Shown here one piece after another: positions 2,487 to 33,866 of a stretch of 43,110 nucleotides of DNA. The stretch lies in contig PLPI01000093.1 of the NCBI GenBank assembly GCA_003159495.1, positions 5,833 through 48,942 on the forward strand. The letters are read 5' to 3'. Made by a program: the position numbers and the translations under genes. How positions within the stretch are numbered: the stretch's first letter is position 1; each line of letters opens with the position of its first letter. The notes beneath the pieces were generated by a model that worked only from the letters and a program-made list of their open reading frames with translations, ran no database searches and was not told the DNA's origin. Source of the DNA: a candidate division FCPU426 bacterium. Lineage in GTDB: Bacteria > Oederibacteriota > PGYV01 > Palsa-1178.

Positions 2487-4913
2487 TTATTTATCCCTTA
2501 ATATAATAACTTCCCCGGTGCAGGCGGCCCTTCCGATACCATCCGTCCCGGAGGCAATTAAACGGAACAAATATAAACCGTTTGCAAGGGATTCAAAATT
2601 ATTTGATTCCATCATAACCGCATTATCACCCGCGTAATAATTCCCGTCAAGTTCAATCCTTCTTATCAGCCTGAAACCAGTTGTGTAAAGGTTAAACTTA
2701 ACCGCGCCGCAGTCCCTTGTTACATTAAAACCGATGCCCATTTCCCCGTTCCTTGAAGGGTTAAACGGATTCGGGTACGGCCTAACATCCGATAATATAA
2801 GCGCCGACGGCTGCGTCGCCACGGTCTGCGTCGCTGTTGCCGTCGGAAGCCAGGTCACAATGTATGTGTTCGTTGCCTGCGGTGTTTGTGTGCAAGTTCC
2901 GGTAGATGCCGGGGTGGCGGTTCCTGTTGATGTGAAAGTATTTGTTGAAGTAAATACCGGCGTACTGGTTAAAGTTGATGACGCAGAGGCTGTTAAAGTT
3001 AATGTTATTGATGGCGTTGGCGTGTATGTATTTGTCGGCGATGCGCAGCCATCAAGTATCGCCTCTCCAAACCCGCTTGTGTCCTCCCAGTCATCAGGAT
3101 TTCCGTTCCACATCAGAACCCCGTTACGGGTTGGGCCGCATGTCTCATTGTGGTCGACCGCCGCATCAAACCCGATGGCCAGCGAAGGCGATGGTATCTT
3201 CCCGATGTCGCTCCATAATATTTTAAACTCGGCAGAATATCCATTTGCGGTCTGGTAGGTAGCGGCGGTTGTGCCGCCAAGATGTCCGTATACCTCGCGC
3301 GCCACCGGATCGCCGTATCTTATTGAAAATTCAAAATCACCTGCGCCGTAAGTTGTTGCGTGGTCGTTGTCGGCGTTTATATAAACTTCAACAGCGTCGT
3401 CCTCCGGCCAGTCGGCTGCGGGGTTTGAATTGCAAAGCACGGGGTCAGTCACGTTTACCCCAACATACAGCGCCGCAGCGTCCCATTTAACCATAAAATT
3501 CGCGCTTACCCCTCCTGCCGAGCCTTCCGTAACCCTTGTGACACCGGTCCATGTTCCGCCCTGCCAGCCGGCATCATTTAAGTTCCCGTCTATTACAAAA
3601 GCCGTTCCCCGGGCGCAGCCTGCGTAAACCACCCCTGATGTCTGCACAGGCGTAGCGGTAAAAGTCTGAGTGGCTGTCCGGGTCGCCGTCTGCGCAGGCG
3701 GTGTTCCGGTTATTGCCGCCGTCGGGGTATTTGCCGGCGAAGGCGTAATGCATGGCGGCTGTGTCACAGCCGCAAGCCAGGCCATTACATCCGCTCCGTG
3801 GCATGATGTAGGGGTATATGTCCAGTCCTTTATAAGGCTGGGGCTTGAATATGGATTTAAGTCCCATGCAGTGGCGCTGTACATATAATCCGCGTTGTTT
3901 CCCCCGTCAAGCCATGAAATTAAACCGGATTCAAACGGGTTGCACCCGCTGTCATCCCAGCCGCAGCAGTTGCCTTCGGCGTTCGTACCCGACATCAGGG
4001 ATCCGAATTCCCCGACAAATACGCAATACCCCGCGTTCACGGCGGCGGTAATATATTCATCCCAGCTTGGAGCGTCATTATTGCCGGGGTTTCCGTAATA
4101 TACATGGGCGTCATACGCTATACCATAGCCGGTCATGGTGTTTCCCGTATTTGTGTCTGTTAAGGCGTTGCCCGGTATTCCTGTCAGGTCATGGCACCAT
4201 TGCAGGCCTGCAGCAATGACTATATTCTTTGCGCCTGTATCGCGGATGGCCTGCAGCATGGTCTGGTAGCCCGGGCTGATAAAACTTCCGGTCCAGCCGC
4301 CGTCACGCCACACGCTCCAGGGCATATAAGTCGGCTCATTATAAAGGCCGAACAAAACAGCGGGATTATTTCCGAATGTCGAGGCAAGGCTCTGCCAGAA
4401 TACTAGGGCATTCATGTCGGCCATTGCCGGGCCAAGCACCTGCACAGAAGTGGATGTGCCCCAGGCGGCCATGCCTGACCAGTGCAGGTCAAGGATAACA
4501 TAACAATTAAGGCTGGAAGCGGCGTTTACCATATTGGCAACGTAGGCCCTGTAATTATCCTGGTTTGTCAGGTTCTGTGTGGCGGATGAGGATGTTACCC
4601 CGTTGCTGTATCCAAACCAAAAATCCTGGTTTAATGGTATCCGGACGATATTCGCTTTCCACGTGTTAACCGCCACATTTATTGACTGTGTCATGTCACC
4701 GCTCGGGCTGGCCAGGCCGGCTCCGTCAGCTTCCCATTCCAGCCCGTCCACATTCACGCCTGCAAGCCTGACCGGACAGCCGGTGGAGGCGTTTACAAAC
4801 TGGTTTCCCGAAACCTCAAGTTGCGCAGGCGCGGCAAAGATGGATGCCGCCGAAAACAATAAAAAGAACACCGCGTATATTGCTGAAATATTTTGCGCCT
4901 TTTTCATCCGCAT
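2487..4913 (-). CDS. Secreted GH5 glycoside hydrolase (cellulase-like) + CBM9/DOMON-like domain + Thr-rich linker + C-terminal sorting domain
   Basis: Signal peptide; NIVRIPLN, ILDLH, LYNEP (acid/base), HVY, FVGEFG (nucleophile); IDGNLND..W / WD...LYVGVNVTD / DAVEVYI (CBM9-like); YPNPFNP tail. Confidence 0.92.
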   Translation of the reverse strand: MRMKKAQNISAIYAVFFLLFSAASIFAAPAQLEVSGNQFVNASTGCPVRLAGVNVDGLEWEADGAGLASPSGDMTQSINVAVNTWKANIVRIPLNQDFWFGYSNGVTSSSATQNLTNQDNYRAYVANMVNAASSLNCYVILDLHWSGMAAWGTSTSVQVLGPAMADMNALVFWQSLASTFGNNPAVLFGLYNEPTYMPWSVWRDGGWTGSFISPGYQTMLQAIRDTGAKNIVIAAGLQWCHDLTGIPGNALTDTNTGNTMTGYGIAYDAHVYYGNPGNNDAPSWDEYITAAVNAGYCVFVGEFGSLMSGTNAEGNCCGWDDSGCNPFESGLISWLDGGNNADYMYSATAWDLNPYSSPSLIKDWTYTPTSCHGADVMAWLAAVTQPPCITPSPANTPTAAITGTPPAQTATRTATQTFTATPVQTSGVVYAGCARGTAFVIDGNLNDAGWQGGTWTGVTRVTEGSAGGVSANFMVKWDAAALYVGVNVTDPVLCNSNPAADWPEDDAVEVYINADNDHATTYGAGDFEFSIRYGDPVAREVYGHLGGTTAATYQTANGYSAEFKILWSDIGKIPSPSLAIGFDAAVDHNETCGPTRNGVLMWNGNPDDWEDTSGFGEAILDGCASPTNTYTPTPSITLTLTASASSTLTSTPVFTSTNTFTSTGTATPASTGTCTQTPQATNTYIVTWLPTATATQTVATQPSALILSDVRPYPNPFNPSRNGEMGIGFNVTRDCGAVKFNLYTTGFRLIRRIELDGNYYAGDNAVMMESNNFESLANGLYLFRLIASGTDGIGRAACTGEVIILRDK

Positions 4914-5190
4914 CCCTTTAAATGGAATAGTATATATACATATTTTATCACTACTATTTTTGTTATCAAGAAGAAACCGGCCATTTACCGGATTTACCGG
5001 ATATTTAATTCAATGGATTGGCCTGCTGAATGCCGCGGTAATGGTATGTATTTGCGCTGGTATTTCACGGTAATGATAAGGTATGAATGTCAGGTTAAGA
5101 AAGTCACCTTCTTTACGTTTTCACATCTAAGTATTACGGCACTGCCGGAAAACCCGAAGCTGGTTTTATCCAGGGTATATGACAGTACCA

Positions 5191-7984: not shown

Positions 7985-10843
7985 TTATTTACTTATAACC
8001 ATCATCGGCCTGTCCGGCGGCCTTGATTCGCTTCCGGACGCGTCGGAGGCGCTCACGGAATAATAATATATCCCCGTGGCAACGCCGCCCAGTTCACCGG
8101 GCCCTGACTTTACCTCAAAATTACCTGTTATTTCATCCGCCCCCCATCTTATGTCGCGTATAAGGCGGAAAGAAACTGTGTATATCCTCATCCTGACCGA
8201 AACCGGCGCGCCGGTACACTCAAGCCTGAGAGTAAAATCCCCGCTTCCCGTCACAGGGTCGGGATATAATATGGTACTTGTCACCTCAAATGCCCCGGCG
8301 GGCGTGTTTACAGGCGTGGCAGTTGCCGTGGCTGCTCCGGACGGGGTGGCAGTCTGCATAACCTGCGGCGATGCCGTTATTGTTATTGTAAATGTCGGGG
8401 TGCAGGTTGATGTCAGCGTATCAGAATATGTGGCGGTTATTGTGTCCGTGTCAGTGGCCGTCCATAGCGGGTTCACCGTATCGGTCACGGTCGGCGTAAG
8501 GGTTATTGTCGCGGTTAACGTTCCGGTCATGGACGGCGTGGCTGTCATTGTCGCGGTCGGCGTTCCGGTCACGGACGGCGTGGCGCTGTTTGTTGCCGTA
8601 ATAACCTGTGTCGTGGTCATTGTCCCCGTCGGCGTAAATGAAGCCGGCGGTATTGCCGTCTGCGTGCCGGTCGGCGCGGCGCCTGCCGCCTGCTTCCATA
8701 CCCCGCCGCCAAATGTGGTGACATAAGTGTAATTCGTGTCAAAGGTCATATGTTGCGGCGAGGCAAAAGGTATCCCTGTCACGCGCGCCCAGGTTGTTCC
8801 TCCGTCGGTTGAGCCGAATAATCCCTGCCCCTCGGTTGAGTAGTAGACATTATTTGTATTACCCGGGTCTATCATGGCCGCATAGCCGTAAGGCGTATGC
8901 CCCACGGGCATGTTCATAAGGGCCCAGCTGGCGCCCCCGTTTGTTGACTTCCACAGCCCGCCGTCGCTGTATCCGCCGCAATCCTGCGCCGCGATGAATA
9001 TTATATTCGGGTCCTGCGGGTTCACGTCAAAATCAGCCGGGTATTTCAGCGCGTGTCCGCCGAAGTTTAAAGCTATGTTTGTCCAGCCCGCGCCCTGGTT
9101 GGCCGATACAAAAAGGCCGCCCGCGTTCGCATAAGTTTTTTGCGCGCTCAAAAGGCAGTATAATTTCCCCGTTACAAGTTTAAGAGAGTATACGTCATGG
9201 TTCGTGCCTATGGCCACCGGCGCGGTTGCCGCCCAGTTAGTGCCGGCCGCGCTTGTCGATTTATAAACGCCGTTGCCCCACGATGCCGCGAAGTAAACGT
9301 TATTGACCGGGTCAAAGACAACGGAAGTTGTGGGCGAGACAGGCATACCGGTGGAGGCAGGCGCCCATGTGGCTCCGTAGTCCGTTGACTTTGCGATGCC
9401 GCCGCTGCCCGCCCTGCCAAGGGGCCAGCTGTGGTCTATGTCATGGAGCCCTCCCACCGCGGCAATAATCACACCCGGCGTCGGATTAAAGGCTATCTGG
9501 TAAAATGTATTCGTCCACGCCTGGGAAACAGTGCCTTTGCGGGCGGTGTCATACCATGTCTGCCCCGCGTCGGTTGAGCGCGCGAAGCCTATGTCGGTAT
9601 AGCATATATAATGATAATTTGGATTATTCGGGTCTATGACGTACTGCCACGAAGTGGTCATTTCAAGGCCGCGCGACGCCCACTTCTGGGCCGCGGCGCG
9701 CGGCGCCGTATCGGAATATGTGGAATAGGCCTCCTGCCATGTGGCGCCCGCGTCATCGCTTAAAAATGTCTCGCCGTAATTTGTGAACATACAGCGGTTC
9801 GAGTCGGCCTTATCCACGCACAGCATGGTGTTGGGCGAGCCCCATGAAAAACTCAGGTCATAGCTTATCCATCCCATTGAGGCGTTGGGCGCCGGGTTTG
9901 TGTCAACAAGGGCCTTTGCCCATGTTCCGCCCGCGTTGGATGTTTTCCAGACACTGCGGTCCGATGTGTTTATGGCATATGCCGTGGATGTGTCGTTGTC
10001 CGAACAGGCCACCATGCCGAACCAGTCGCCCGAGCCGGAGAGCGTCCATGATGACGCGTCGGTGGAAGTATATAAATCACCGTTGCTGCCGTCTATCTCA
10101 TATAGCCGTCCTGAAGTGGCGTTGCTGGCCCCGCAAAACCCGGAAGAATTCGTTGAAGGCAGTCCGTTGTTTGCCGCGGCCCACGTGGCCCCGTTATTTA
10201 CGGACTTAAATATCCCGTTCCATGACCCTGCATAGCACGTCCTGCTGCCCGTGGCGCTGCGCTGGTCCACCATGAGCCCCTGGATATAACCGGAGCTTAC
10301 ACCCGGCCCTGTAAAAGTTGTTCCGCCGTCAGTGCTTGTATAAACCCCCGCCTCTGTTCCGACAAGCATGAAGCTTGCGTTTGCGCGGTCTATACAAATG
10401 ACCGTTACCCTGTCCGCGCCCCATGCCGGTGATGCGTTCAATACCGACCATGTCACCCCGGCGTCAAGGCTTACCATCAGCTGTGAAGGATTGTTATTCA
10501 AATCCTGCCGCCTGCCGTAGCCGTAAACCTTATCAGGGTTTACCGGGTCATAAGCCATGGCGCACATAAATCCGTTGCCGAAACCGTAATCAACGTCCGT
10601 GCAAAGCTGGTAAAAATCCAGCATGTTCCAGGTGGAGCCCCCGTCAGTGGAGCGGTACCATCCCGACATATCAGAACCGACAAAGCGAAGATTTGGGTTC
10701 AAAGGAGATATGGAAGGAGCATACTGGGCGCCGCCGCCGCCGATGCCGGTGACCGACCATGCGGAAAAACAAGGGGAAGATATAAGAAAGAAAATAAAGG
10801 CAAGAAATAATGTAGCCGGCCCGCGTCCTATGAGTTTAATCAT
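7985..10843 (-). CDS. Secreted BNR/Asp-box double beta-propeller, GH74 (xyloglucanase)-like + Thr-rich linker + C-terminal sorting domain
   Basis: Many SxDxGxTW Asp-boxes; N-terminal IGGGG; GSDMSG and YTDIG at positions like the two GH74 catalytic Asp motifs; YPDP tail. Confidence 0.8.
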   Translation of the reverse strand: MIKLIGRGPATLFLAFIFFLISSPCFSAWSVTGIGGGGAQYAPSISPLNPNLRFVGSDMSGWYRSTDGGSTWNMLDFYQLCTDVDYGFGNGFMCAMAYDPVNPDKVYGYGRRQDLNNNPSQLMVSLDAGVTWSVLNASPAWGADRVTVICIDRANASFMLVGTEAGVYTSTDGGTTFTGPGVSSGYIQGLMVDQRSATGSRTCYAGSWNGIFKSVNNGATWAAANNGLPSTNSSGFCGASNATSGRLYEIDGSNGDLYTSTDASSWTLSGSGDWFGMVACSDNDTSTAYAINTSDRSVWKTSNAGGTWAKALVDTNPAPNASMGWISYDLSFSWGSPNTMLCVDKADSNRCMFTNYGETFLSDDAGATWQEAYSTYSDTAPRAAAQKWASRGLEMTTSWQYVIDPNNPNYHYICYTDIGFARSTDAGQTWYDTARKGTVSQAWTNTFYQIAFNPTPGVIIAAVGGLHDIDHSWPLGRAGSGGIAKSTDYGATWAPASTGMPVSPTTSVVFDPVNNVYFAASWGNGVYKSTSAAGTNWAATAPVAIGTNHDVYSLKLVTGKLYCLLSAQKTYANAGGLFVSANQGAGWTNIALNFGGHALKYPADFDVNPQDPNIIFIAAQDCGGYSDGGLWKSTNGGASWALMNMPVGHTPYGYAAMIDPGNTNNVYYSTEGQGLFGSTDGGTTWARVTGIPFASPQHMTFDTNYTYVTTFGGGVWKQAAGAAPTGTQTAIPPASFTPTGTMTTTQVITATNSATPSVTGTPTATMTATPSMTGTLTATITLTPTVTDTVNPLWTATDTDTITATYSDTLTSTCTPTFTITITASPQVMQTATPSGAATATATPVNTPAGAFEVTSTILYPDPVTGSGDFTLRLECTGAPVSVRMRIYTVSFRLIRDIRWGADEITGNFEVKSGPGELGGVATGIYYYSVSASDASGSESRPPDRPMMVISK

Positions 10844-11963: not shown

Positions 11964-12056
11964 ATAATTAACCCCGGTTCTTAAAATAATTCAGCTAAAT
12001 AATAGTTAAGCTGCTTGCTGCGCCCCACCCGTGCCGTCCGTTCAACCATTAAATGC

Positions 12057-12932: not shown

Positions 12933-12947
12933 CCTAAACTCCTTTTT

Positions 12948-14553: not shown

Positions 14554-14554
14554 G

Positions 14555-15238: not shown

Positions 15239-15253
15239 ATTCCAATCCGTTCC

Positions 15254-17221: not shown

Positions 17222-20200
17222 TTATCTCAGTATTATTACCTTGTTTATCACTCCGGATTTTTCGGCTCCTTTAATATCCCTGCTTACCACCTCGTAAAAA
17301 TATATGCCGTTGGAGAATGCTTTGAACAGGTCGGCCTGGATGGAACCTTTGTTCATTCCCGCACCGGATGGATAGAGGCTTTCTTCCATAATCAGCCTTA
17401 ATGCCCTTGTATAAAATCTCACCTTTACCGTATCCGACGGGTCCAATACTTTATAAATAATATTCAAATCCCCCTTTGACGGGTTGTACGGGTTTGGATA
17501 AACAATTTCCTGCGTTGCAACTGCCTGCGGTGTATTGGTCGGCGTCGCAGCAACAGTCAATGTCAAAGTAATTGTGGCGGTAAAAGAGGGCGTAATTGTT
17601 TTTGTCGGCGGCGGAGTCGCTGAGGCCGTATTTGCCGGGGTTATGGTTATTGTCATTGTGGACGTCTGTGTATTTGCCGGAGTATTCGTTCCTGTTTGTG
17701 TGTATGTCTGCGCCGCCGTGGCTGTGTTTGTAAATGGCGTTGTTTCCGTCAGGGTTGGCGTTACAGTGTATGACGGTGTGTTTTGCTGCGTCCATGTCGA
17801 TGTTGCCGTGGTTGTCACGGTCAACGTCGGCGAATCACCTTCGGTCGGCGTGTCTGTTATTGAATATGTCAGCGTCGCGGTAAAGGTAAAAGTATCCGGC
17901 AGCGTGGAAGTTTCCGTCAGCGTAGGTGTGTACGTGGCTGTAAAAGTGCCCGTTGATGTCAGAGTCGCGGAATATGTGGGCGTCGGCGTTATTGTAAATG
18001 TCGGCGTTAATGTCAGCGTCTCGCTGAAAGTCGGCGTGGCGCTTTCGGTCCAGCTCGGGGTTGCCGTCTGCGTATCTGTCATCGTGCCATAGCCGGTCGT
18101 CCATGTGGGTGAAATTGTCAGCGTGGATGACGCAGTCGGGGTTGATGTGTATGTTGAAGAGGCTGTGGATGTGCGGGTTGCCGTAAATGTCTGTGTCATT
18201 GAAGGCGTATCAGTGGCTGTTTTTGTGAATGTCGGTATTGTTGTCGAAGAAAATGTCCATGTCAGCGTCGCCGTAGCAGTACCTGTCGGCGTATAAGTCT
18301 TTGTCGCGCTGGCGGTAAATGTCTGCGTCGCGGTAAATGTTCCGGTTGCCGTCTGCGTCCCGGTGGGCGTAAAGGTCACGGTCGCTGTAAAAGTGGGCGT
18401 TGCGCTCCCTGTTGCCGAACCAGTCGGGGTTGCGGTGCGGGTTATTGTAGATGATGGCGTACCTGTAAATGTCGGCGTACGGGTCTGCGTGGAGGTTGCT
18501 GAATTTGCCGGCGTCACAGTCACGGAAGGCGTCACAGTCGGCGTCGCCGTCAGTGTCGGGCTCGATGTTGACGTGCGAGTCGCCGTGTATGTCATAGTGG
18601 CGCTTGGTGTCGCTGTAAAGGTCTGCGTATTTGTCCTCGTAAATGTCGGGGTGTTGGTCCTGGTCATGGTAAATGTAAAGCTTGAAACGGGCGTGTTTGT
18701 CGGCGTTGTCGGCCCGCCGCACGCGGATACTCCCGTCACGGGATTTATCCCGGTTAAGGCATCCTGAGTCGTCGCGCTTGTATATTCGCAGACAAGGTTT
18801 GCCCCCTCAAATAGGTTGAAATAAGGGTCCTCGTGATATGTGGTATTTGTCCCCAGCTGTGAAAAATCATCGCAGCTGTCGTCAAATGGAGTTGCCCATG
18901 AATTCCTGTAAATTTCAGCGCCCGAACTCAGGTCAAGATAACCGCCGTTTGCCGGTATTACAGTTACCCCCGAAAATGTCAGGTCCACGTATTTATTAAC
19001 TTTTCTTGTAGATGAATATATATAAGTTGTTGCCGCCGTCGCGGTTACCAGCGTACACGAAACGCTTCCCTGGCTGACCCCGGCAGAATTATATACGGCC
19101 CCGCCCCAGCACCCGTTTATACCGAAGGTGTCTGATGTGTTTGCGCAGTAAAAATATGCCCTTACCGTCAGGCTGTTCAAAGCAACGTCAACCGTGTCGT
19201 TGTTGATAATCTTCACCTTATACTTGAAGGAATTTGCAACGCACGGGTCGTTTCCGCTGTTGTCGTTTGCCACCTGAAGGTTCAGTTTATTCGTAGCCGG
19301 GGCTGTCGGAGTTACCGTAAAAGTCGGTGTAACGGTCGCGGTGAACGTCTTTGTCCATAACGGATTTGCAGTCAGTGTCAGCGTAATGGTCGGCGTCGCG
19401 GTGGCCGTGTACATGTTCCTGAAATTGGGAAAATTTCCGGTTATCATTAACAGCGACATCAACTGATGGCAACCGCCGTAATACTGTGATGTGATATCCA
19501 TGGTGGATAAATAGGAATAAAAACTGTTTATGACCGTCTGGTATGTTGAAGAAACCATGAGCGAGCAGGCCGCCGGCCCTATAAAAGCGCCGTTATGGTT
19601 TGAGCTGGAAATCGAGCCGTTTGAGGTGTTGTATCCGTCTCCGACTCCGCCCGCGCCTTCCGGGCCGAATAATGAGGCCAGGAGGCCTATCTCGGTCTGT
19701 GAATTCGTGTCGCCGTTCCAGATATAATCGGCCGCGTATCTCCATGGTATCCTGCAGGAATTGTAGCCGTATGATGTGCTTCCAAGGGTTTCCCCGACCA
19801 GGCCGTCAACCCCCTTGTTGGCGTTGATATCCGCGGCGCATTTCGCGATAACATTGTTCCAGAAGGTTGTGTCGCTTGTAGCATCGCCGTAAACCCTGTA
19901 CCAGGCCGGCGTGTAGTATGAAGGGTAATATGTGCCGTCCCAGTTGTCCCCGGGTTTGACATGATAGTCCGAAGACCCTATTTCATACTGCTTGATTTTG
20001 GCCACTTCGGCCTGTCCGAGCGCGAGGTAATTATATGTTCCGCCGCTCCCCCACTGTTTGTCAGCCATGATAAGGGCAAAGGCGATATCCTCATCCCCGT
20101 CCGTGGCGGAATACGTGCCGGAAATATTTCCCGAAGAATCCTCGTGCCAGTTCATGAGCCCGTAGGAATCATTATAATGTGTTTTGTAAACCCATAACCC

Positions 20201-20512
20201 GTTAAAAGTGGCCTGATCGTCAAAATAAACAGTGATTATCATACCATAGCCTATGCCTTCGGATACGGTATCATTGCCGTCGGTGTTTCTTAATACCCTT
20301 AACCCGCCCGACGGGCATCCGCCTGACGTTATATAAGAACTTTTCCAGCTTGAATACAGGTTTGAAAGCGTGGCCGAACTGCCGTTGGTGGCTTTTATTC
20401 CATGGGGATATGTGAAATTTTGCGGGAACGGAAAATTACCCGCATAAGAATACGCAGTGACAGCTGTAATTACGCCGAATATAAAAACAAGCCTTTTTAG
20501 AGTAAAGCGCAT
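17222..20512 (-). CDS. Secreted GH8 glycoside hydrolase + CBM3-like domain + very long Thr-rich stalk + C-terminal sorting domain
   Basis: TVSEGIGYGM, LMNW, SATDGDEDIAFAL, YNSCRIPWR (GH8); VKIINN..VDVALNSLTVRAYF (CBM3-like); YPNPYNP tail. Confidence 0.93.
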   Translation of the reverse strand: MRFTLKRLVFIFGVITAVTAYSYAGNFPFPQNFTYPHGIKATNGSSATLSNLYSSWKSSYITSGGCPSGGLRVLRNTDGNDTVSEGIGYGMIITVYFDDQATFNGLWVYKTHYNDSYGLMNWHEDSSGNISGTYSATDGDEDIAFALIMADKQWGSGGTYNYLALGQAEVAKIKQYEIGSSDYHVKPGDNWDGTYYPSYYTPAWYRVYGDATSDTTFWNNVIAKCAADINANKGVDGLVGETLGSTSYGYNSCRIPWRYAADYIWNGDTNSQTEIGLLASLFGPEGAGGVGDGYNTSNGSISSSNHNGAFIGPAACSLMVSSTYQTVINSFYSYLSTMDITSQYYGGCHQLMSLLMITGNFPNFRNMYTATATPTITLTLTANPLWTKTFTATVTPTFTVTPTAPATNKLNLQVANDNSGNDPCVANSFKYKVKIINNDTVDVALNSLTVRAYFYCANTSDTFGINGCWGGAVYNSAGVSQGSVSCTLVTATAATTYIYSSTRKVNKYVDLTFSGVTVIPANGGYLDLSSGAEIYRNSWATPFDDSCDDFSQLGTNTTYHEDPYFNLFEGANLVCEYTSATTQDALTGINPVTGVSACGGPTTPTNTPVSSFTFTMTRTNTPTFTRTNTQTFTATPSATMTYTATRTSTSSPTLTATPTVTPSVTVTPANSATSTQTRTPTFTGTPSSTITRTATPTGSATGSATPTFTATVTFTPTGTQTATGTFTATQTFTASATKTYTPTGTATATLTWTFSSTTIPTFTKTATDTPSMTQTFTATRTSTASSTYTSTPTASSTLTISPTWTTGYGTMTDTQTATPSWTESATPTFSETLTLTPTFTITPTPTYSATLTSTGTFTATYTPTLTETSTLPDTFTFTATLTYSITDTPTEGDSPTLTVTTTATSTWTQQNTPSYTVTPTLTETTPFTNTATAAQTYTQTGTNTPANTQTSTMTITITPANTASATPPPTKTITPSFTATITLTLTVAATPTNTPQAVATQEIVYPNPYNPSKGDLNIIYKVLDPSDTVKVRFYTRALRLIMEESLYPSGAGMNKGSIQADLFKAFSNGIYFYEVVSRDIKGAEKSGVINKVIILR

Positions 20513-24800: not shown

Positions 24801-25053
24801 AGCCGTATATCCTTTCCGCGGCCGGGTTCCACGAAGTTATAATAAGGCGGTCGTCCATTGTATACGCGGCATCCGAAATATTATAAAGCAAATCCTGCTG
24901 AAGTTTTATTGTAAGGCAGGCGGAACTTTCCGGGATTGATTTGGAATGCCGGCCTGCGGGCTGCCGCGCTGTTTTTATTTTTGATGCCGCCCTTTTAGTT
25001 TCTTTTACCACGGGTTTATCACCCGGCGCGTCCGGTTTTTTTCCGGCTTTCAC
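21820..25053 (-). CDS. Cytoplasmic multi-PAS sensor histidine kinase
   Basis: About six PAS/PAC repeats (WNPAAERIYGW, DIT..K/R); H-box AHELRNP; N-box NILNNALDA; FDPFFTTK..GTGLGL. Confidence 0.96.
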   Translation of the reverse strand: MKAGKKPDAPGDKPVVKETKRAASKIKTARQPAGRHSKSIPESSACLTIKLQQDLLYNISDAAYTMDDRLIITSWNPAAERIYGWRAKEVIGKSAIDVTGEKIGPEIFEILTQVRMEKAPVKFRIEHMDKNGGMLVFDSTIMPQRASGNDLSGYIIINHDITELKRSHDDLLKAWDIAEARAREAEDGENLLNMLLENIPEGIVLSKGDGEHVRISRCLKEWIGSDKTEFTLDAWLNKMPLYTMDGERVKPLELPIARILKNGETIHGGEYLLRPNGLPERIITAEAGPVIDKNGKFNGYVVAWRDITQTKLAEKELRQSEQRLKYHYINSPLAVVEWDANYIVTHWSTEAERIFGWKKEETIGIRIDLLNLIFKDDIQIVEKTMERLSSGSELTVTSTNRNVTKSRDVIVCTWYNSVLLDKNGKMESVMSLIEDITASRRVEEENKRLLLEVQDRAAKLDSIILSMATGLIAYDISGKAIMMNNVAKRLLPEQAFKELTIKQRLETIKWENGDGTPLKPDNIPTVRALRGEMVQNVVMGTVFSENKLWVSASAAPIRSVDGRLFGAVVSFVDITESRRTEELLKINENRLKLLTESILDTFTAIDRNLRFTYWNKTAENISGISAEEALGKTRIEIFGDNEDTRKTTEYQMVCLKTGKSMRYENKTVIDGMTRYFDVRLFPSAEGATIISREVTGRKLAEDARIESEQKFMTIFNSAPVGISLAEIHDGRLIDVNRAWLDITGFTDKKEVVGKTLPELGLPSRIEKWAHVLDEFAENGMARLIEMDIVTRSGVKRAVLVNTDTIEVNGRKVMMSTNEDITERKQAEDILKRDNETFYRLVREKTEALVETKLELEKSKRLSDIGSLAAIVAHELRNPMAAIGVVVYNMKRKTTDQYMTASLENIQKKLSEGVQIINNLLYYSRLKPPHYENTAIYDILDESVGAIADKNGKNAAVEKSYGSLEGVSIPADPIQIKEVFYNILNNALDAAPKDGGRIKISAVKREGAVEIAFENNGEHIRPESLPRIFDPFFTTKAKGTGLGLTVCRQIIDYHNGALNAVSEAGRGTIFTVSLPDSR

Positions 25054-26047: not shown

Positions 26048-26842
26048 TCAAACCCGGGCGCGGGCCCCCGGGCGTGTTTTGGCCTTATGAGTACGCCGTT
26101 TTGCGCCATTCTTTTGCGCGCGTTTCTTTGGCTTTACGGAGGCCATGTTGCGGAACATCGCCGGCGTGAATCCGGTCTGCTTTTTAAACGCCCTGATGAA
26201 CGTTTCGGAATTGGCATAAGCCAGCCTGTCCGATATCTGGTTCACGTTGAATCCCTGCTTGAGGAATTCCCTGGCCTTTTTTATCTTGATTGACGTCTTA
26301 AAAACGGAAAATCCCGTCCCCGTATGCTCCTCGAACGCCCTGCTCAGGTAATTAGAGTTTAAACCCGCGTGGGAGGCCGCCTGCGCCAGGCTGACTTTCT
26401 TGTCAAAATTACGCTCTATGAATATTTTCACCCTCTCGATCTTTTCCTTTATATTATCAGTGCCGGTTATGCCTGCCGAGTCCTTCTCGCCGAGAAGCTT
26501 TGCTATTATTTCCCTTATCCCGTCAACATCGACTGGTTTTTCAATGTATTCATCCGCCCTGTTCTTCAGCGAGGTTATGGCAACATCCTTGGAACTGCTC
26601 CCGGTCAGCATTATTATTTTCAGCGAAGGGTTGATGGCCTTCATTTCCGCCAGCGCGTCGGTGCCCTTTAATCCGGGCATAAGTACGTCTAGCAGGACAA
26701 GATCCACGGTATTGGGTTTTTTGAGTATTTCAACGGCGGTTTCGCCGTCCCCGGCCTCGGTAGTCTCGTATTCGTCAAGGCATTCGCACAATCCGTGCCT
26801 GAATACGGAATCATCGTCGACAACAAGCAGGTGGTAAGACAT
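26048..26842 (-). CDS. Response regulator with C-terminal AraC HTH (YesN-like)
   Basis: LLVVDDD, DLVLLDVLMP, EYIEKP; LNSNYLSRAF...FIRAFKKQTGFTP. The GGAGG RBS favours ATG 26842 over the tracked start at 26905. Confidence 0.94.
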   Translation of the reverse strand: MSYHLLVVDDDSVFRHGLCECLDEYETTEAGDGETAVEILKKPNTVDLVLLDVLMPGLKGTDALAEMKAINPSLKIIMLTGSSSKDVAITSLKNRADEYIEKPVDVDGIREIIAKLLGEKDSAGITGTDNIKEKIERVKIFIERNFDKKVSLAQAASHAGLNSNYLSRAFEEHTGTGFSVFKTSIKIKKAREFLKQGFNVNQISDRLAYANSETFIRAFKKQTGFTPAMFRNMASVKPKKRAQKNGAKRRTHKAKTRPGARARV

Positions 26843-26933
26843 ATTTCCCTCCGTTTTTTGCCATGAAAATGTTTTTAAACCCGGCCAAAAAATATTATCA
26901 GGCAAGAGGGAAAATAAATCAAGCCCGTTTTTA

Positions 26934-30761: not shown

Positions 30762-33700
30762 CTATCGTATTATAACAAACTTCCCCATCTTGTTGTCTCC
30801 GGCCGCGTCTGTCAGCGCGTAAACATACAATCCCGATGAGAGCGTCTTTGCGTGCACAAGCCCCCTGATTTTCATGAAGAGCAGGCCGTCCGGAGTCGCT
30901 TCCGAATCCGAATATACCAGCCCTCCTGTCAGTGAATATACCTCAAGCCTTGTCGCCGAGGTCAGGCCGTAAAAATATACCCCGTCATTTTTTGCCGTCC
31001 TTGCGTCGTAATAAGAGGGGTAAACATACGCCTTATTCAGGTTGTTCTGCTTTCCTATGCCCTGCATTGGCGTAAAGGTCGGCGTTATAGTGGGCGTCAA
31101 TGTTATGGTCAGCGTATTTGTGACCGTATACGTCATGGAAACCGTTGTTGTTATCGTCGGCGTTATCGTATTTGTAATGGTCCTCGTGGGTGTAACCGTC
31201 TTTGTCCCGGTGGGCGTGTTTGTGGGCGTCCCGGCCGGCTGGTAAACGGCAATGTCGTCTACATTTATTGAAAAACTCTGCCCCTGCCCCGTAAAATCCC
31301 ACTGTATCGCTGTCACCGCGGAAAGGTCGAATGGTTTGGCCGAGGCGAAACCCGGCTGGGTCATTGCCGAGAACGGAATGTAATACTGCGTCCAGGCCGC
31401 GGGCGCGGTGAATGTGTACTGGTAATAGCCGCTGTCGGTTATGTTCGACGTCTGCACCTTGATGTCATAGCTCTTGCCGTCGCCTTTCACATACAGATAA
31501 AGGCCGGTGTAGTTGTATAAATTTGTAGACGGAAACCCGGTGCCCCATCCTATATAAACATAATTGCTCCCGGAATTGGTCCCCAGCGTGCCCGTGACCG
31601 CGTAGCTTCCTATGGGCGACAGCGGGCTTCCTCCGGCAACCTTTGAAGCCGAGGTTATAGCCGAACCCGTTCCGTATGAATCAGAGTATGAATACCACGT
31701 CCCTCCCCACAGGTTCGCGTTGGATGGTTCGTTCTCACAGTTGTCGATGATATTGAACTGCTGTGGTATCGGAGTGGGCGTAATTGTCGGCGTCTGGGTT
31801 ATCGTCCCGGTCGGCGATATGGTCGGTGTGATGGTAGGCGATGATCCGACCGGCACAAAATTCATAACCGATATCGAATATGCCGGGAACGTGAAAGAAA
31901 ATGACGACGCCGCAAAATTTATGTTTGAAGCCTGCGGCGCAAGGTCGGGGTCGGCGTATGAAGAGGGCGTTGAATCGAACCACTGGTAATTGTTTATATA
32001 ATACGGCGCGGACGCGGACGCGGCGAATGTGTAGAGGTCCGCCGACGGGTCCGGTGTGTATCCCGCGATATTTATCACCGCCTGATACGCGTTGGCGCTG
32101 TCCTTATTTACCACCATCACCGAGAGCTTTCCGTCCGACCTTTTATTTGCGTAAACAGGCAGGAGCGCCTGGTTCGATGATGCCGACACAAGCGTGTTGC
32201 CGTTGTCGTCGGCCACTCCAAAGAGGTTGTTGAATATGTACATGCCCCAGTAAGTGGCCCTCTGCTGGTACTGATACGCCCCGGTCTGCTGCCCTATTTC
32301 CAGGAATCCCTGGTCGTAATTGCCCGTGGAGGCGTTGTTGTTCATGACATCCCAAAGCGAAGCGTCGGCCCTTGTGCCGAAGGCTTTCGCGTATTCCCCT
32401 ATCCAGTTGACCATCCAGAGCGTCATGGGAAACTGCATCGCAAGCAGGGTGGCACCACCCGAGTTATGCTCCGACATGTAGACTTCCTTTGCCGTCGTGG
32501 AACCGTAATATTTTGTCTGCAGGTTGTCTATGAAAGACTTGTAATTGGATTCTCCGAACCAGTTGTTCGGCGTGTCAAGGGTCGTTGCCGCATCGGTATT
32601 TGACCAGTTCGCGTAAATATGAAAATCTATAACGTCCAAATCGGGAAGTTTTCCCGCAGCCTGTACGTTTTGAAGAAAGGTGTCTATATAGGACTGTCCG
32701 TCGTAGAGTTCGGAGTTAATCTGAATGGATGAAATTACCGGGCCGCATATTTTTATCGTCGGGTCGACAGCCTTCATTGCGTCGGCGAATTTTACGAACC
32801 TTGCCGCGTAATACTGCGCGTCCACGGGCCCGCCGGTCTCCCATGTGCCGTCCATTTCATTGCCCACCTGCCAGTATTTGATGCCGTACTTCTGAACAAT
32901 ATTGGCGTAATAAACCCACGCCGCGGCCTCTTCAGGCGTGCCTGTCCCGAAATTAACCGTACAGGCCGGGATAGCCTTGCCGCCCATTGAATTTATCAGC
33001 GTCATGTATGTTTCAAAGCCAAATGCCGGAGTCCATCCGTAGTTGCTGTTTTCAAGGTCGGTCGGCGACGCTATTATTGTGGTCTGCCCCATATCATTTT
33101 CATTTACGGTTACCCGCGTTGACCCGTTATATAGCATTATTTCATTCATTTTATAACCAACGCCGGAACTGGCGTGCATAAGAATCCTGAATACCTGTGC
33201 CGTTGTCGATGGAATTGCCCGGATATCCGTGCCTCCCGCTCCGTTTGTCACCGTTAAAATAGTGGTCCAGCTGCTTGTATTTGCCATGTGCGGCGCCCAG
33301 CCGTAATTGCCGTAATTGTTCCAGTACTGTATCTCGTAATTGACGGAGTAAGTATTGCCCCAGTAAATATTAACCTGGTTTACGGCCTTCGCCGACGGGA
33401 GCATCACAATAACATAAGCGTTCGTTGTGGCGCCGGCCGCGGTGATGGTATCGGATACCCACTGATTGGCGCTTGACGTGTCGCCGTCAGCCAGGACGCT
33501 TGGATTCCCATAGCTTGAGGTTGTTCCCCTGCGAAGCAGGTTGGCCTGGAACCCGGGAGCGTAAACAGTCTGGCTCGGATGCCAGATATTATTCGCGTCA
33601 TATGAACCGTTGCCGTTCCAGTGATAATTGTCGGAATTCGATCCGCCCGGAAAACGGAGAAGATAGCTTCCCGCTGCGTTTATTTTGGCGGTATTTGCCG

Positions 33701-33866
33701 TATATGCGGCGGGAGCAATCCAGTAGCCCAGGTTGTTGCCCAGAAGCATCCTGTAATGATAAGGATTAACCACAGTGGAATAGTCTACATTAATGGCAGC
33801 AGGCGTGGAAAACGCCGCAATGGAAAATAAAAAATAAACCAATATTAAGGCTGATTTTTTAATCAT
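30762..33866 (-). CDS. Secreted clan GH-A hydrolase (GH44/GH51/GH79-like) with inserted discoidin/CBM32-like domain, CBM11/CIA30-like domain, Thr linker and C-terminal sorting domain
   Basis: LRFPGGSNSDNYHW, YWQVGNEMDG, DFHIY, YMSEHN; DGDTSS..W.SD...VNIYW...YSVNYEIQ (discoidin); IDNCE..WGGTWYSYSD...WTQYYIPFS (CBM11-like). Confidence 0.85.
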   Translation of the reverse strand: MIKKSALILVYFLFSIAAFSTPAAINVDYSTVVNPYHYRMLLGNNLGYWIAPAAYTANTAKINAAGSYLLRFPGGSNSDNYHWNGNGSYDANNIWHPSQTVYAPGFQANLLRRGTTSSYGNPSVLADGDTSSANQWVSDTITAAGATTNAYVIVMLPSAKAVNQVNIYWGNTYSVNYEIQYWNNYGNYGWAPHMANTSSWTTILTVTNGAGGTDIRAIPSTTAQVFRILMHASSGVGYKMNEIMLYNGSTRVTVNENDMGQTTIIASPTDLENSNYGWTPAFGFETYMTLINSMGGKAIPACTVNFGTGTPEEAAAWVYYANIVQKYGIKYWQVGNEMDGTWETGGPVDAQYYAARFVKFADAMKAVDPTIKICGPVISSIQINSELYDGQSYIDTFLQNVQAAGKLPDLDVIDFHIYANWSNTDAATTLDTPNNWFGESNYKSFIDNLQTKYYGSTTAKEVYMSEHNSGGATLLAMQFPMTLWMVNWIGEYAKAFGTRADASLWDVMNNNASTGNYDQGFLEIGQQTGAYQYQQRATYWGMYIFNNLFGVADDNGNTLVSASSNQALLPVYANKRSDGKLSVMVVNKDSANAYQAVINIAGYTPDPSADLYTFAASASAPYYINNYQWFDSTPSSYADPDLAPQASNINFAASSFSFTFPAYSISVMNFVPVGSSPTITPTISPTGTITQTPTITPTPIPQQFNIIDNCENEPSNANLWGGTWYSYSDSYGTGSAITSASKVAGGSPLSPIGSYAVTGTLGTNSGSNYVYIGWGTGFPSTNLYNYTGLYLYVKGDGKSYDIKVQTSNITDSGYYQYTFTAPAAWTQYYIPFSAMTQPGFASAKPFDLSAVTAIQWDFTGQGQSFSINVDDIAVYQPAGTPTNTPTGTKTVTPTRTITNTITPTITTTVSMTYTVTNTLTITLTPTITPTFTPMQGIGKQNNLNKAYVYPSYYDARTAKNDGVYFYGLTSATRLEVYSLTGGLVYSDSEATPDGLLFMKIRGLVHAKTLSSGLYVYALTDAAGDNKMGKFVIIR

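What the first reader, a model, noticed from the sequence alone, without database searches (positions are those of the whole stretch)
2487..33866. Four unrelated CAZymes share one C-terminal sorting domain: a possible T9SS-like export system outside Bacteroidota
Seen: GH5 (tail ~2487-2800), GH74-like (~7985-8295), GH8 (~17222-17525) and GH-A (~30762-31045) all have signal peptide - catalytic domain(s) - Thr stalk - ~95-aa terminal domain. Aligned motifs: YPNPFNP/YPDP/YPNPYNP/YPSYYD; LYTTGFRLI/IYTVSFRLI/FYTRALRLI/VYSLTGGLV; LANGLYLF/VATGIYYY/FSNGIYFY/LSSGLYVY; EVIILR/MMVISK/KVIILR/KFVIIR. Known: YPNP..., GxY and K-hydrophobic-K/R ends are hallmarks of type-A T9SS C-terminal domains (related to FlgD-Ig). 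The YTxx[F/L]RLI variant in three of them looks lineage-specific, and the window has no SusC/SusD genes. Inference: a T9SS-derived or parallel secretion/anchoring pathway displaying a stalked, cellulosome-free glycan-degrading coat in a little-studied phylum.
Basis: partly seen in the sequence, partly recalled or inferred. Interest (0 to 1): 0.75.

Follow-up and report, generated by a model that had tools for sequence, protein, structure and literature searches.

The report
T9SS-like sorting tails on Goldbacteria CAZymes
Four plant-fibre-degrading enzymes of an uncultured Goldbacteria-like bacterium end in a divergent version of the export tag used by type IX secretion, and the genome holds the pore and carrier parts of that system but no detectable motor, although reviews confine the system to Bacteroidota and their allies.

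Summary
Four minus-strand genes (GH5+CBM9, BNR/sortilin GH74-like, GH8, GH44-like) each encode a signal peptide, catalytic modules, a Thr-rich stalk and a ~95-aa terminal domain.

- **Tails:** three are one close subclass (pairwise BLASTP E 1e-8 to 2e-16). The fourth is a different, more canonical subclass.
- **Identity:** they are divergent type A T9SS C-terminal sorting domains. None of the four reaches the TIGR04183 cut-off, but 30 of the genome's 74 such tails do. A variant-only profile matches the canonical ones (hhalign 99%, E 4e-18) and the solved PorU CTD.
- **Host:** the nearest named RpoB relatives are Candidatus Goldiibacteriota, outside the FCB group.
- **Machinery:** the genome has a true but divergent SprA homologue (profile vs PDB SprA, E 2e-35) and about 33 PorV/PorQ-family barrels.
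- **Missing parts:** GldL, GldM and GldN were not found, here or in 61 genomes of the phylum, while positive controls scored 5 of 5. No PorU-type peptidase was found in this genome.
- **Variant:** the YTxxFRLI form is specific to this organism's order, always follows a Thr stalk, and is enriched on CAZymes.

Verdict: a new variant of a known kind. Export and surface display are inferred, not shown.

The parts
2487..4913 (-). Gene for signal peptide - GH5 - CBM9 - Thr stalk - variant CTD (808 aa)
   Evidence: ORF; translation; Pfam PF00150 E 3.8e-31 and PF06452 E 1.5e-32
2490..2783 (-). Variant-class C-terminal sorting domain (YPNPFNP ... YTTGFRLI ... GLYLF ... VIILR)
   Evidence: AlphaFold2 on a 74-tail alignment gives pLDDT 96.5 and a 7-strand sandwich. 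No NCBIfam hit at E<=0.01.
2796..3056 (-). Thr-rich stalk (33% Thr) in front of the GH5 tail
7985..10843 (-). Gene for signal peptide - BNR/sortilin beta-propellers (GH74-like) - Thr stalk - variant CTD (952 aa)
   Evidence: Pfam PF15902 E 8.7e-20 and BNR E 1.5e-12. NCBIfam F510_1955 glycosylhydrolase is below its cut-off.
7988..8272 (-). Variant-class CTD (YPDP ... YTVSFRLI ... GIYYY ... MMVISK)
   Evidence: It matches only the C-terminal end of the PorU model, E 3.5e-4.
8300..8698 (-). Thr-rich stalk (35% Thr)
17222..20512 (-). Gene for signal peptide - GH8 - unassigned module - 430-aa Thr stalk - variant CTD (1096 aa)
   Evidence: Pfam PF01270 E 1.9e-38
17225..17509 (-). Variant-class CTD (YPNPYNP ... 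YTRALRLI ... GIYFY ... VIILR), 72-73% identical to two tails on contig C34
17492..18781 (-). Thr-rich stalk, 430 aa, 40% Thr
30762..33866 (-). Gene for signal peptide - F5/8-type-C-like - GH44-like TIM barrel - CIA30/CBM11-like - Thr stalk - canonical-leaning CTD (1034 aa)
   Evidence: Pfam PF12891 E 1.4e-6, PF22633 E 5e-7, PF08547 E 1.6e-13
30765..31049 (-). CTD of the second subclass (YPSYYD ... VYSLTGGLV ... GLYVY ... KFVIIR), with the Gly of the canonical motif kept
   Evidence: TIGR04183 at 18.7 bits, cut-off 23; CHU_C E 0.0016; 25.8 bits against the genome tail HMM; nearest paralogues on C89 and C62
31032..31268 (-). Thr-rich stalk (34% Thr)

Best explanation
The four tails are divergent type A T9SS C-terminal sorting domains (CTDs). 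Three belong to an order-specific subclass in which the conserved Gly of the central strand is replaced, giving YTxx[F/L]RLI. The fourth belongs to a more canonical subclass.

Proposed pathway, all of it inferred:
- The enzymes cross the inner membrane by Sec.
- The CTD is then recognised at the outer membrane by a divergent SprA-type translocon, working with PorV/PorQ-family barrels.
- The enzyme ends up outside the cell on a long, probably glycosylated, Thr stalk.
- No PorU-type sortase was found. The CTD is therefore more likely kept and held non-covalently by a PorV/PorQ-type barrel (as I recall for PorU-PorV and PorZ-PorQ in P. gingivalis), or the enzyme is released. Transfer to LPS is less likely.
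- The system lacks a detectable GldLM/PorLM motor and GldN ring, so how transport is energised is unknown.

Shown here: domain homology, C-terminal position, co-occurrence with the SprA and PorV/Q families, non-detection of the motor against positive controls, and the lineage distribution. Inferred: export route, tail fate and surface display.
For: CTD identity:
- A profile of the 74 tails matches PDB PorU CTD 6za2 (E 4e-11), PorZ CTD 5m11 (E 2e-8) and the T9SS substrate CTD 8glj_D (E 2.6e-4).
- The variant-only profile matches only PorU CTD (E 3e-5) and 8glj_D (E 0.039) at E<=1.
- Variant-only against the canonical, TIGR04183-passing tails of the same genome: hhalign 99.0%, E 4e-18 over 96 columns.
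- 30 of 74 tails pass the TIGR04183 cut-off and 49 of 74 match it at E<=0.01.
- The model is a 7-strand sandwich, pLDDT 96.5. Against PorU CTD: Z 9.9, rmsd 2.7, 96 aa.
- 73 of 75 HMM-positive ORFs carry the domain at the C-terminus.
- Signal-peptide-like N-termini occur in 52 of 62 complete CTD ORFs against 248 of 713 background ORFs, by a crude heuristic.

Machinery:
- SprA model TIGR04189 gives colinear hits on an ORF split over the contig ends C21/C51.
- A profile of six phylum homologues matches F. johnsoniae SprA 6h3i/6h3j, E 2e-35.
- SprA is found in 58 of 61 phylum genomes.
- There are 33 PorV-like ORFs; 19 of the 23 scanned pass the NF033709 cut-off.
- 31 of 31 phylum genomes have 8 to 49 PorV_fam matches each.
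- 12 of the 33 barrels have a CTD gene within 300 bp.

Motor and sortase not found:
- GldM 0 of 61, GldL 1 weak hit in 61, GldN 0 of 61, against 5 of 5 Bacteroidota controls for each.
- The PorU model matches only through its CTD end, in 27 places.
- Peptidase_C25 occurs in 7 of 61 genomes, none in this genome or genus.

Host:
- The named RpoB relatives are Candidatus Goldiibacteriota at 72-74% identity. NCBI places that phylum outside FCB.
- Doud 2019 places Goldbacteria next to Firestonebacteria and Elusimicrobia and reports its GH5/8/9/44 and CBM11 richness (PMC7031533, passages).
Against: - None of the four window tails reaches the curated cut-off of TIGR04183 or PF18962. 15 of the 74 tails have no NCBIfam hit at all at E<=0.01.
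- The fold is a generic Ig-like sandwich. Foldseek and VIA rank many unrelated Ig-like domains level with PorU's CTD.
- The four CAZyme genes have no PorV-like neighbour. 0 of the 12 barrel-adjacent CTD genes are of the variant class, so their partner barrel is unknown.
- No PorV-like ORF reaches the PorV, PorQ or PorV2 equivalog cut-offs.
- SprA scores below its curated cut-off in this genome (75 bits against 200) and in 56 of the 61 genomes.
- In the studied systems the motor is needed for transport. The abstract of PMC10994853 (listing) says disrupting it traps the substrate, so a motor-less SprA may work differently or do something else.
- Three secretin loci exist, so another outer-membrane route is available.
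- There is no experimental evidence of any kind. The genome is a 145-contig assembly, 97.8% complete.
Confidence: 0.7

Rival explanations
1. The tail is only a structural or binding Ig-like module of the FlgD-Ig type, for example a cell-surface or carbohydrate adhesion domain, and has no sorting role. The enzymes leave the cell by a secretin-based (T2SS-like) or other route.
For: - The fold is generic Ig-like.
- FlgD Ig-like domains of flagellar proteins match the tail profile almost as well as CTDs do (7eh9, E 2.3e-8).
- Ten CTD proteins carry extra internal FlgD-Ig-like copies.
- Three secretin loci are present.
- The motor needed by known T9SS was not found.
Against: - The best-scoring copy is at the extreme C-terminus in 73 of 75 ORFs. 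No variant-class copy is internal.
- The cargo is very diverse: GH5/8/9/18/28/30/44/53, PL4 modules, an S8 protease, propellers and DUF11. That fits an address tag better than a substrate-binding module.
- The variant-only profile finds only T9SS CTDs in the PDB.
- The family co-occurs with SprA and an expanded PorV/Q family across the phylum.
- CTD genes are paired with PorV/Q genes.
Confidence: 0.12
2. A complete, canonical T9SS is present. Its motor (GldL/M), ring (GldK/N) and sortase (PorU) are either too divergent for the family models or lie in unassembled parts of the genome.
For: - SprA itself is very divergent here (75 bits against a cut-off of 200), so other parts could have drifted below detection.
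- Four ORFs match the C-terminal FGE-sulfatase part of the GldK model.
- Peptidase_C25 proteins exist in 7 of 61 phylum genomes.
- The assembly has 145 contigs.
Against: - GldM 0 of 61, GldN 0 of 61 and GldL 1 weak hit (20 bits) in 61, across 45 genera. These include single-contig or few-contig genomes at 96-100% completeness. The same searches scored 5 of 5 above cut-off in Bacteroidota.
- The GldK hits cover only model positions 251-406, and the same search also rings in Bacillus, Caulobacter and Methanosarcina.
- No T9SS motor gene lies in the 20-kb neighbourhoods of SprA in the six phylum genomes examined.
Confidence: 0.1
3. The SprA-like barrel and the PorV/Q-like barrels serve outer-membrane or LPS biogenesis rather than protein export. 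The CTDs only dock already-exported proteins onto these barrels.
For: - The SprA-like gene sits beside lptF/lptG in 5 of 6 phylum genomes examined, and beside O-antigen-ligase and heptosyltransferase genes in this genome.
- The best-scoring PorV/Q gene (C20) is followed by an ABC ATPase gene and then an LptD_N gene.
- Several PorV/Q barrels are fused to OmpA-like peptidoglycan-binding domains.
Against: - In 4 of 7 genomes (this one included) the SprA-like gene is directly followed by a large fn3 protein with a CTD, as expected of a translocon with its cargo.
- Homology to the solved translocon covers three stretches of the barrel.
- Gene neighbourhood is weak evidence for function.
Confidence: 0.08

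Closest known systems
Type A T9SS C-terminal sorting domain (TIGR04183 / PF18962 Por_Secre_tail), especially the long CTDs of P. gingivalis PorU (PDB 6za2) and PorZ (5m11)
   Same: About 80-100 aa at the extreme C-terminus, behind a signal-peptide-bearing multidomain cargo. Seven-strand Ig-like sandwich. YPNP start, central I-Y-x-x-x-G-x-L-V strand, GxY motif and K/R-hydrophobic end. Profile matches.
   Different: The three variant tails replace the central Gly with F or L followed by R-L-I, are about 95 aa long, always follow a Thr stalk and fall below all curated cut-offs. The host is not FCB. No PorU peptidase that could cleave them was found.
SprA/Sov translocon with PorV of Flavobacterium johnsoniae (PDB 6h3i, 8gl6-8gln)
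   Same: A giant outer-membrane barrel homologue (about 2170 aa here, 1750-2330 aa in the phylum) that matches SprA in three colinear stretches. PorV/PorQ-family barrels are present.
   Different: Fibronectin type III domains at the N-terminus. Below the curated cut-off in 56 of 61 genomes. No GldLM motor or GldN ring. PorV/Q family expanded to 8-49 matches per genome, with fusions to OmpA_C, TPR and FlgD-Ig.
T9SS-dependent cellulolytic systems of Bacteroidota and Fibrobacterota (Cytophaga hutchinsonii, Candidatus Paraporphyromonas polyenzymogenes, Fibrobacter succinogenes)
   Same: Cellulosome-free, multi-modular GH5/GH8/GH9-type enzymes carrying T9SS CTDs (titles and abstracts of PMC11611037, PMC8564354 and PMC5831590 in the listings).
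   Different: Those organisms have complete T9SS gene sets (abstract of PMC11611037, listing). Here the motor and sortase are not detectable, the phylum is different, and a dedicated CTD subclass marks the CAZymes.
Type B CTD cargo with dedicated PorP/SprF-like partners (e.g. SprB-SprF)
   Same: One cargo gene followed by its own outer-membrane barrel gene. 12 such CTD-barrel pairs occur in this genome. The comparison is from the title and abstract of PMC9143113 (listing).
   Different: The barrels here are of the PorV/PorQ family, not PorP/SprF. TIGR03519 found nothing, though without a positive control. The four window CAZymes are not in such pairs.

Membership tests
Type A T9SS CTD (TIGR04183 / PF18962) | Score at or above the curated family cut-off | tested here: not met
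   0 of the 4 window tails reach it; the best is the GH44-like tail at 18.7 bits against a cut-off of 23. PF18962 gives E 0.09 and 0.12. In the whole genome 30 of 74 tails do reach it.
Type A T9SS CTD (TIGR04183 / PF18962) | Homology to accepted members by profile comparison | tested here: met
   Variant-only alignment against the TIGR04183-passing tails: hhalign 99.0%, E 4e-18. Variant-only profile against PDB: PorU CTD E 3e-5 and 8glj_D E 0.039, with no other hit at E<=1.
Type A T9SS CTD (TIGR04183 / PF18962) | Extreme C-terminal position on a protein with an N-terminal Sec signal | tested here: met
   73 of 75 are C-terminal. 52 of 62 complete ORFs, and 4 of 4 in the window, have a signal-peptide-like start by a crude heuristic.
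Type A T9SS CTD (TIGR04183 / PF18962) | Compact 7-strand Ig-like beta-sandwich | tested here: met
   AlphaFold2 model pLDDT 96.5 with seven strands. Against PorU CTD: Z 9.9, rmsd 2.7, 96 aa, but level with many other Ig-like domains.
Type A T9SS CTD (TIGR04183 / PF18962) | Needed for export through SprA/Sov, then removed by PorU | not testable with these tools
   Needs proteomics or genetics. No PorU-type peptidase was found in this genome.
Type IX secretion system (canonical, Bacteroidota) | SprA/Sov translocon | tested here: met
   TIGR04189 gives colinear matches, best E 1.1e-21, 75.7 bits, below the cut-off of 200. Phylum profile against PDB SprA: E 2e-35. Found in 58 of 61 phylum genomes, 5 over the cut-off.
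Type IX secretion system (canonical, Bacteroidota) | PorV shuttle (and PorQ) | tested here: inconclusive
   At family level, 19 of 23 scanned ORFs pass NF033709 PorV/PorQ. None reaches the PorV (250), PorQ (220) or PorV2 (325) equivalog cut-offs.
Type IX secretion system (canonical, Bacteroidota) | GldL/PorL-GldM/PorM proton-driven motor | tested here: not met
   GldM: none here, 0 of 61 in the phylum. GldL: none here, 1 weak hit in 61. Controls: 5 of 5 Bacteroidota over the cut-off for both. This is non-detection at family-model sensitivity.
Type IX secretion system (canonical, Bacteroidota) | GldK/PorK-GldN/PorN periplasmic ring | tested here: not met
   GldN: none here, 0 of 61, control 5 of 5. 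GldK: only partial FGE-sulfatase-domain matches, and these also ring in non-T9SS control genomes, so GldK alone is inconclusive.
Type IX secretion system (canonical, Bacteroidota) | PorU sortase (C25 peptidase with CTD) and PorZ | tested here: not met
   The NF033707 model matches 27 places, all within model positions 961-1095, which is the CTD end. Peptidase_C25: none in this genome or genus, 7 of 61 in the phylum. The PorZ model matches through its CTD end only.
Type IX secretion system (canonical, Bacteroidota) | Host within Bacteroidota or the FCB group | tested here: not met
   RpoB relatives that carry a phylum-level name are Candidatus Goldiibacteriota (72-74%); closer ones are unnamed or labelled Spirochaetia. 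The NCBI lineage is outside FCB. Doud 2019 places Goldbacteria beside Firestonebacteria and Elusimicrobia.

The most novel reading that the evidence does not exclude
SprA, PorV/PorQ barrels and CTD tags form an old, motor-independent outer-membrane export and display module. It is widespread outside the FCB group: SprA relatives with Firestonebacteria, Elusimicrobiota and Sumerlaeota titles appear. In one order of Goldbacteria a dedicated CTD subclass (YTxxFRLI) with glycosylated Thr stalks has evolved into a private route or anchor. That route coats the cell with cellulases, with the CTD kept and held by a PorV/PorQ-type barrel in place of sortase-mediated attachment to LPS. The Bacteroidota GldKLMN motor would then be a later addition to this core.
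Probability: 0.35. Interest if true: 0.8.

Novelty: new variant of a known kind. Interest (0 to 1): 0.55.

Why it matters
A 2024 paper states that T9SS genes are absent outside the FCB phyla (PMC11285876, introduction passage). Other abstracts call the system specific to Bacteroidota (listings).

Here a non-FCB, experimentally cellulolytic candidate phylum (PMC7031533) carries the outer-membrane core of the system (pore, carrier family, about 74 tagged cargoes) but not the motor that the studied systems depend on. That raises three testable questions:
- Can a SprA-type pore work without GldLM?
- What anchors the cargo when there is no PorU?
- Which came first, the core or the motor?

In practical terms, current models miss this tail on the three variant-class window CAZymes, which get no TIGR04183 or PF18962 hit at E<=0.01. 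The secreted or surface status of Goldbacteria enzymes is therefore under-annotated. The tail could serve as a marker for mining the extracellular enzyme set of this lineage.

Tried and rejected
- **Complex prediction** (core PorV/Q-like barrel C20 with the GH5 tail): never accepted, because the queue was full. No result exists, so binding is untested.
- **Fold searches**: only generic Ig-like matches. PorU's CTD is among the top rows but not separated from unrelated domains, so the fold cannot settle membership.
- **phmmer of the SprA-like fragments against PDB**: the 1478-aa part found nothing and the N-terminal part only titin-like fn3 hits. The profile search was needed.
- **Pfam on the SprA-like ORFs**: no SprA_N hit.
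- **PorP/SprF** (TIGR03519): nothing in this genome, but I ran no positive control, so this says little.
- **GldK**: ambiguous FGE-sulfatase hits.
- **Literature:**
  - 'Goldbacteria' + 'type IX secretion' and 'Goldbacteria' + 'secretion' gave only Doud 2019, where the term stands in a reference title, and one chemoreceptor preprint (listing only).
  - 'type IX secretion' + 'Elusimicrobia' gave 4 papers. I read passages of two of them, and neither describes such a system.
  - A six-term search listed no paper combining Elusimicrobia or Firestonebacteria with T9SS terms among its top 20.
  - The library lacks most subscription journals, and I opened no supplements.
- **Rejected:** canonical T9SS in an FCB host, and chance similarity of the three variant tails.
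- **MotA/ExbB/TolQ-family genes:** seven exist. Three lie within about 4 kb of CTD or PorV/Q genes (contigs C81, C98, C109). This is a lead only.

Full report
**1. What is in the window**

The four genes lie on the minus strand at 2487-4913, 7985-10843, 17222-20512 and 30762-33866 (translations). Pfam assigns the following:
- GH5 + CBM9;
- Sortilin-Vps10/BNR propellers (GH74-like);
- GH8;
- a weak GH44 match with an F5/8-type-C-like and a CIA30 (CBM11-like) module.

Each protein starts with a signal-peptide-like sequence (a crude hydrophobicity and charge heuristic). Each carries a Thr-rich stalk: 87, 133, 430 and 79 residues at 33-40% Thr.

Three tails are clearly related: BLASTP E 1.7e-16, 9e-9 and 1.5e-8 at 29-32% identity. 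The fourth, on the GH44-like enzyme, is not significantly similar to them pairwise (E 0.025 to 2.4). Its nearest paralogues are two other tails in the genome, at 43% and 38% identity.

**2. What the tail is**

Curated models barely see the four tails:
- PF18962 gives E about 0.1.
- TIGR04183 gives at best 18.7 bits against a cut-off of 23.
- There are a few weak matches to the C-terminal ends of PorU, PorZ and T9SS-dependent peptidase models.

An HMM built from the four tails and iterated over all six-frame ORFs of the 3.05-Mb genome converged on 75 ORFs. In 73 of them the domain ends within 30 residues of the stop. The two exceptions are a contig-end fragment and a PorV-like ORF. The GH44-like protein fell out of the full-length scan, but its tail scanned alone scores 25.8 bits. 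That makes 74 tails.

Of these 74, 30 pass the TIGR04183 cut-off, 49 match it at E<=0.01, and 15 have no NCBIfam match at all.

Profile searches tie the tails to known CTDs:
- The 74-tail profile matches the solved CTDs of PorU (6za2, E 4e-11) and PorZ (5m11, E 2e-8), flagellar FlgD Ig-like domains (E 2e-8), and a T9SS substrate CTD caught in the F. johnsoniae translocon (8glj_D, E 2.6e-4).
- I then removed any circularity. I aligned 23 variant tails, leaving out the two that pass TIGR04183, and 28 canonical, TIGR04183-passing tails separately.
- hhalign links these two alignments at 99.0% probability, E 4e-18, over 96 columns.
- The variant-only profile finds only PorU's CTD (E 3e-5) and 8glj_D (E 0.039) in the whole PDB at E<=1.

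AlphaFold2 on the alignment gives a confident seven-strand sandwich, pLDDT 96.5. Fold comparison is compatible with PorU's CTD (Z 9.9, rmsd 2.7, 96 aa, 18% identity) but does not separate it from other Ig-like domains.

I conclude that the tails are divergent members of the type A T9SS CTD lineage, on sequence-profile evidence rather than fold evidence.

**3. Two classes of tail**

A regular expression for the variant strand ([FYW][TS]x2-3[FYLMC]R[LKRFM][IVL]) marks 25 of the 74 tails. All 25 follow a Thr-rich linker, compared with 12 of the 49 others.

I scanned 67 CTD proteins with Pfam: 63 and the 4 window proteins. The seven longest, two of them variant, were left out for size. GH or PL catalytic-type domains occur in 13 of 23 variant proteins and 3 of 44 others. 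Fisher p is 1.4e-5, but paralogues are not independent, so this is indicative only.

The cargo of the canonical class includes an S8 protease, NHL, Kelch and other propellers, DUF11, VWA and FlgD-Ig arrays, and fn3 proteins.

The exact motif YTxxFRLI, searched as a degenerate DNA pattern, behaves as follows:
- 11 of the 12 sampled genomes of this organism's order have it: 33 matches against 5 for the reversed control pattern.
- In the other orders of the phylum it stays at background: 12 matches against 10 control matches in 49 genomes.

A sample of 24 confirmed tail relatives from the species collection points the same way. Four of five from MAGs close to this genome have the Gly replaced. 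All 19 others keep the canonical Gly. Those others are mostly FCB-type taxa: Cloacimonadales, Bacteroidetes, Fibrobacteraceae, Ignavibacteriae, Latescibacterota, Marinimicrobia, Calditrichaceae, Krumholzibacteriia and others.

**4. Who the host is**

RpoB of the genome finds its relatives among uncultured MAGs. The only informative phylum names are Candidatus Goldiibacteriota, on two MAGs at 72-74% identity. Closer MAGs are titled 'uncultured Spirochaetia bacterium' or simply 'bacterium'.

NCBI places Goldiibacteriota among candidate phyla, not in the FCB group. Doud et al. 2019 (PMC7031533; abstract and passages read) place Goldbacteria next to Firestonebacteria and Elusimicrobia. They also report many GH5, GH8, GH9 and GH44 enzymes and 24 CBM11 copies, and they validated cellulase activity. 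That matches the cargo list here. Their main text, searched for the terms 'type IX secretion', 'T9SS', 'secretion', 'C-terminal', 'sorting' and 'Por', does not discuss a secretion route. 'Type IX secretion' occurs only in a reference title.

**5. The machinery**

*SprA.* The SprA model TIGR04189 gives four colinear matches on an ORF broken by a contig gap: C21 end, 689 aa, and C51 start, 1478 aa. Intact homologues of about 1750-2330 aa occur in 58 of 61 sampled genomes of the phylum, 5 of them over the curated cut-off. A profile of six of these matches F. johnsoniae SprA (6h3i, 6h3j) at E 2e-35 in three stretches.

*PorV/PorQ barrels.*
- PorV-like barrels are very numerous: 33 ORFs by a genome-derived HMM.
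- Of the 23 scanned, 19 pass the PorV/PorQ family model NF033709. None reaches the PorV, PorQ or PorV2 equivalog cut-offs.
- Several are fused to OmpA-like, TPR or FlgD-Ig domains.
- All 31 phylum genomes searched have 8 to 49 matches.
- Twelve of the 33 have a CTD gene within 300 bp, nearly always upstream on the same strand. All twelve of those CTDs are of the canonical class.

*Parts not found.*
- GldM: none here, 0 of 61 in the phylum.
- GldL: none here, one 20-bit hit in 61.
- GldN: none here, 0 of 61.
- The same three searches scored 5 of 5 above cut-off in five Bacteroidota genomes, which I reached through a 16S probe.
- GldK gives only partial FGE-sulfatase-domain hits, of a kind that also ring in unrelated control genomes.
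- The PorU model matches 27 places, all through its CTD end.
- Peptidase_C25 is absent from this genome and genus and present in only 7 of 61 genomes.

These are non-detections at family-model sensitivity, in a 97.8%-complete assembly and in many near-complete relatives.

**6. Context of the SprA-like gene**

- In this genome and in three of six other phylum genomes it is directly followed by a large fn3 protein with a CTD.
- In five of the six it is flanked by lptF/lptG.
- In this genome and its family member it is flanked by O-antigen-ligase and heptosyltransferase genes.
- Relatives of this SprA-like protein turn up in MAGs titled Firestonebacteria, Elusimicrobia/Elusimicrobiota and Sumerlaeota, and in others with doubtful labels. 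342 candidate stretches were confirmed and 70 loci listed.

**7. How it most likely works (inference)**

- The enzymes are exported to the periplasm by Sec.
- The CTD is recognised by the SprA-like pore and a PorV/PorQ-type barrel.
- The enzyme emerges on a Thr stalk.
- Without a PorU-type sortase, the CTD is probably kept and held by a barrel, or the enzyme is released. Retention of the CTD by PorU and PorZ themselves is recalled, not read here. The attachment complex of PorQ, PorU, PorV and PorZ is described in PMC11285876 (passage).
- The canonical-class cargoes often bring their own barrel. The variant-class CAZymes do not, so they may share a common barrel. A candidate is the conserved, minimal 314-aa PorV/Q gene on C20. 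It has the best family score (187 bits) and sits in a housekeeping neighbourhood.
- The energy source is unknown. Seven MotA/ExbB/TolQ-family genes exist.
- Secretins also exist, so a different exit route with the CTD acting only as an anchor is not excluded.

**8. Comparison with what is known, and novelty**

[quoted passage not shown] Several abstracts call the system specific to Bacteroidota or to the FCB superphylum (listings; PMC11205867 passages). My searches of the held library found no paper describing T9SS parts in Goldbacteria, Elusimicrobia or Firestonebacteria. That library lacks most subscription journals, and I read no supplements.

The tail is a member, by homology, of a known domain lineage. 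The system fails the membership test for a canonical T9SS on motor, ring, sortase and host. I therefore file it as a new variant of a known kind.

Earlier notes of this same scan, which are AI notes and not independent evidence, describe the same tail on Goldbacteria cellulases and SprA/PorV cores in Goldbacteria, Elusimicrobiota and other phyla. I saw them after forming my reading, and they agree with it. They also mean this window is one more instance of a recurring pattern rather than a first sighting.

**9. Limits**

- There is no experimental evidence.
- The signal-peptide calls are heuristic.
- The phylum name rests on record titles and RpoB identity.
- Paralogue counts are not independent.
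- The co-folding test could not be run.

Noticed in passing
window 12000-16400: A low-GC stretch (36-44% against about 47-57% around it). It holds a BamB/PQQ-like propeller ORF (12057-12932), an ORF with a C-terminal Ntox44 toxin domain (13381-14454) and a RhuM/Fic/HTH protein (15254-16405). It looks like an inserted mobile or conflict-system island between the CAZyme genes.
   Followed up: no
window 35791-43110 (minus strand, runs off the window): An ORF of at least 2439 aa with GT2-like, glucoamylase-like, GH94 supersandwich and GH94 catalytic domains. This is the architecture of cyclic beta-1,2-glucan synthases.
   Followed up: no
window 21820-25053 and 26048-26905: A histidine kinase with multiple PAS domains and a receiver-AraC response regulator lie between the GH8 and GH44-like genes. 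They are possible regulators of the CAZyme genes.
   Followed up: no
G000 contig C21:14106-16172 and C51:1-4437 (loci L041, L042): The SprA-like gene is split by a contig break. It has N-terminal fn3 domains and lies after O-antigen-ligase (Wzy_C), heptosyltransferase and MCP genes. In 5 of 6 other phylum genomes lptF/lptG flank it, and in two a LytTR regulator and His_kinase pair does.
   Followed up: partly
G000 loci L123, L124, L141, L127, L128, L142: PorV/PorQ-family barrels fused to C-terminal OmpA-like peptidoglycan-binding domains (L123, L124, L141) or to TPR repeats (L127, L128, L142). A barrel tied to the cell wall would suit a fixed surface anchor.
   Followed up: no
G000 contig C34:8812-12663 and C34:12776-16219 versus window 17225-17509: Two neighbouring CTD proteins without any Pfam domain carry tails 72-73% identical to the GH8 tail. 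That is far closer than the 29-32% between the other window tails. It suggests recent duplication or sequence exchange between tails.
   Followed up: partly
G000 contig C62:33262-48564 (locus L071): A 5100-aa ORF ends in the best-scoring canonical CTD of the genome (TIGR04183, 40.9 bits). It is a giant surface-protein candidate. It was not scanned for domains.
   Followed up: no
G000 contigs C81:15964-16308, C98:22376-22726, C109:303-653: Three of the seven MotA/ExbB/TolQ-family genes lie within about 4 kb of CTD or PorV/Q-like genes. This could be chance, or a lead to an alternative energiser.
   Followed up: no
loci L266:14167-15684 and L268:3900-5471: In two phylum genomes a PMT_2 (ArnT/protein-mannosyltransferase-like) glycosyltransferase gene lies beside the lptF/lptG genes that flank the SprA-like gene. 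It is a possible link to glycosylation of Thr stalks or of lipid A.
   Followed up: no
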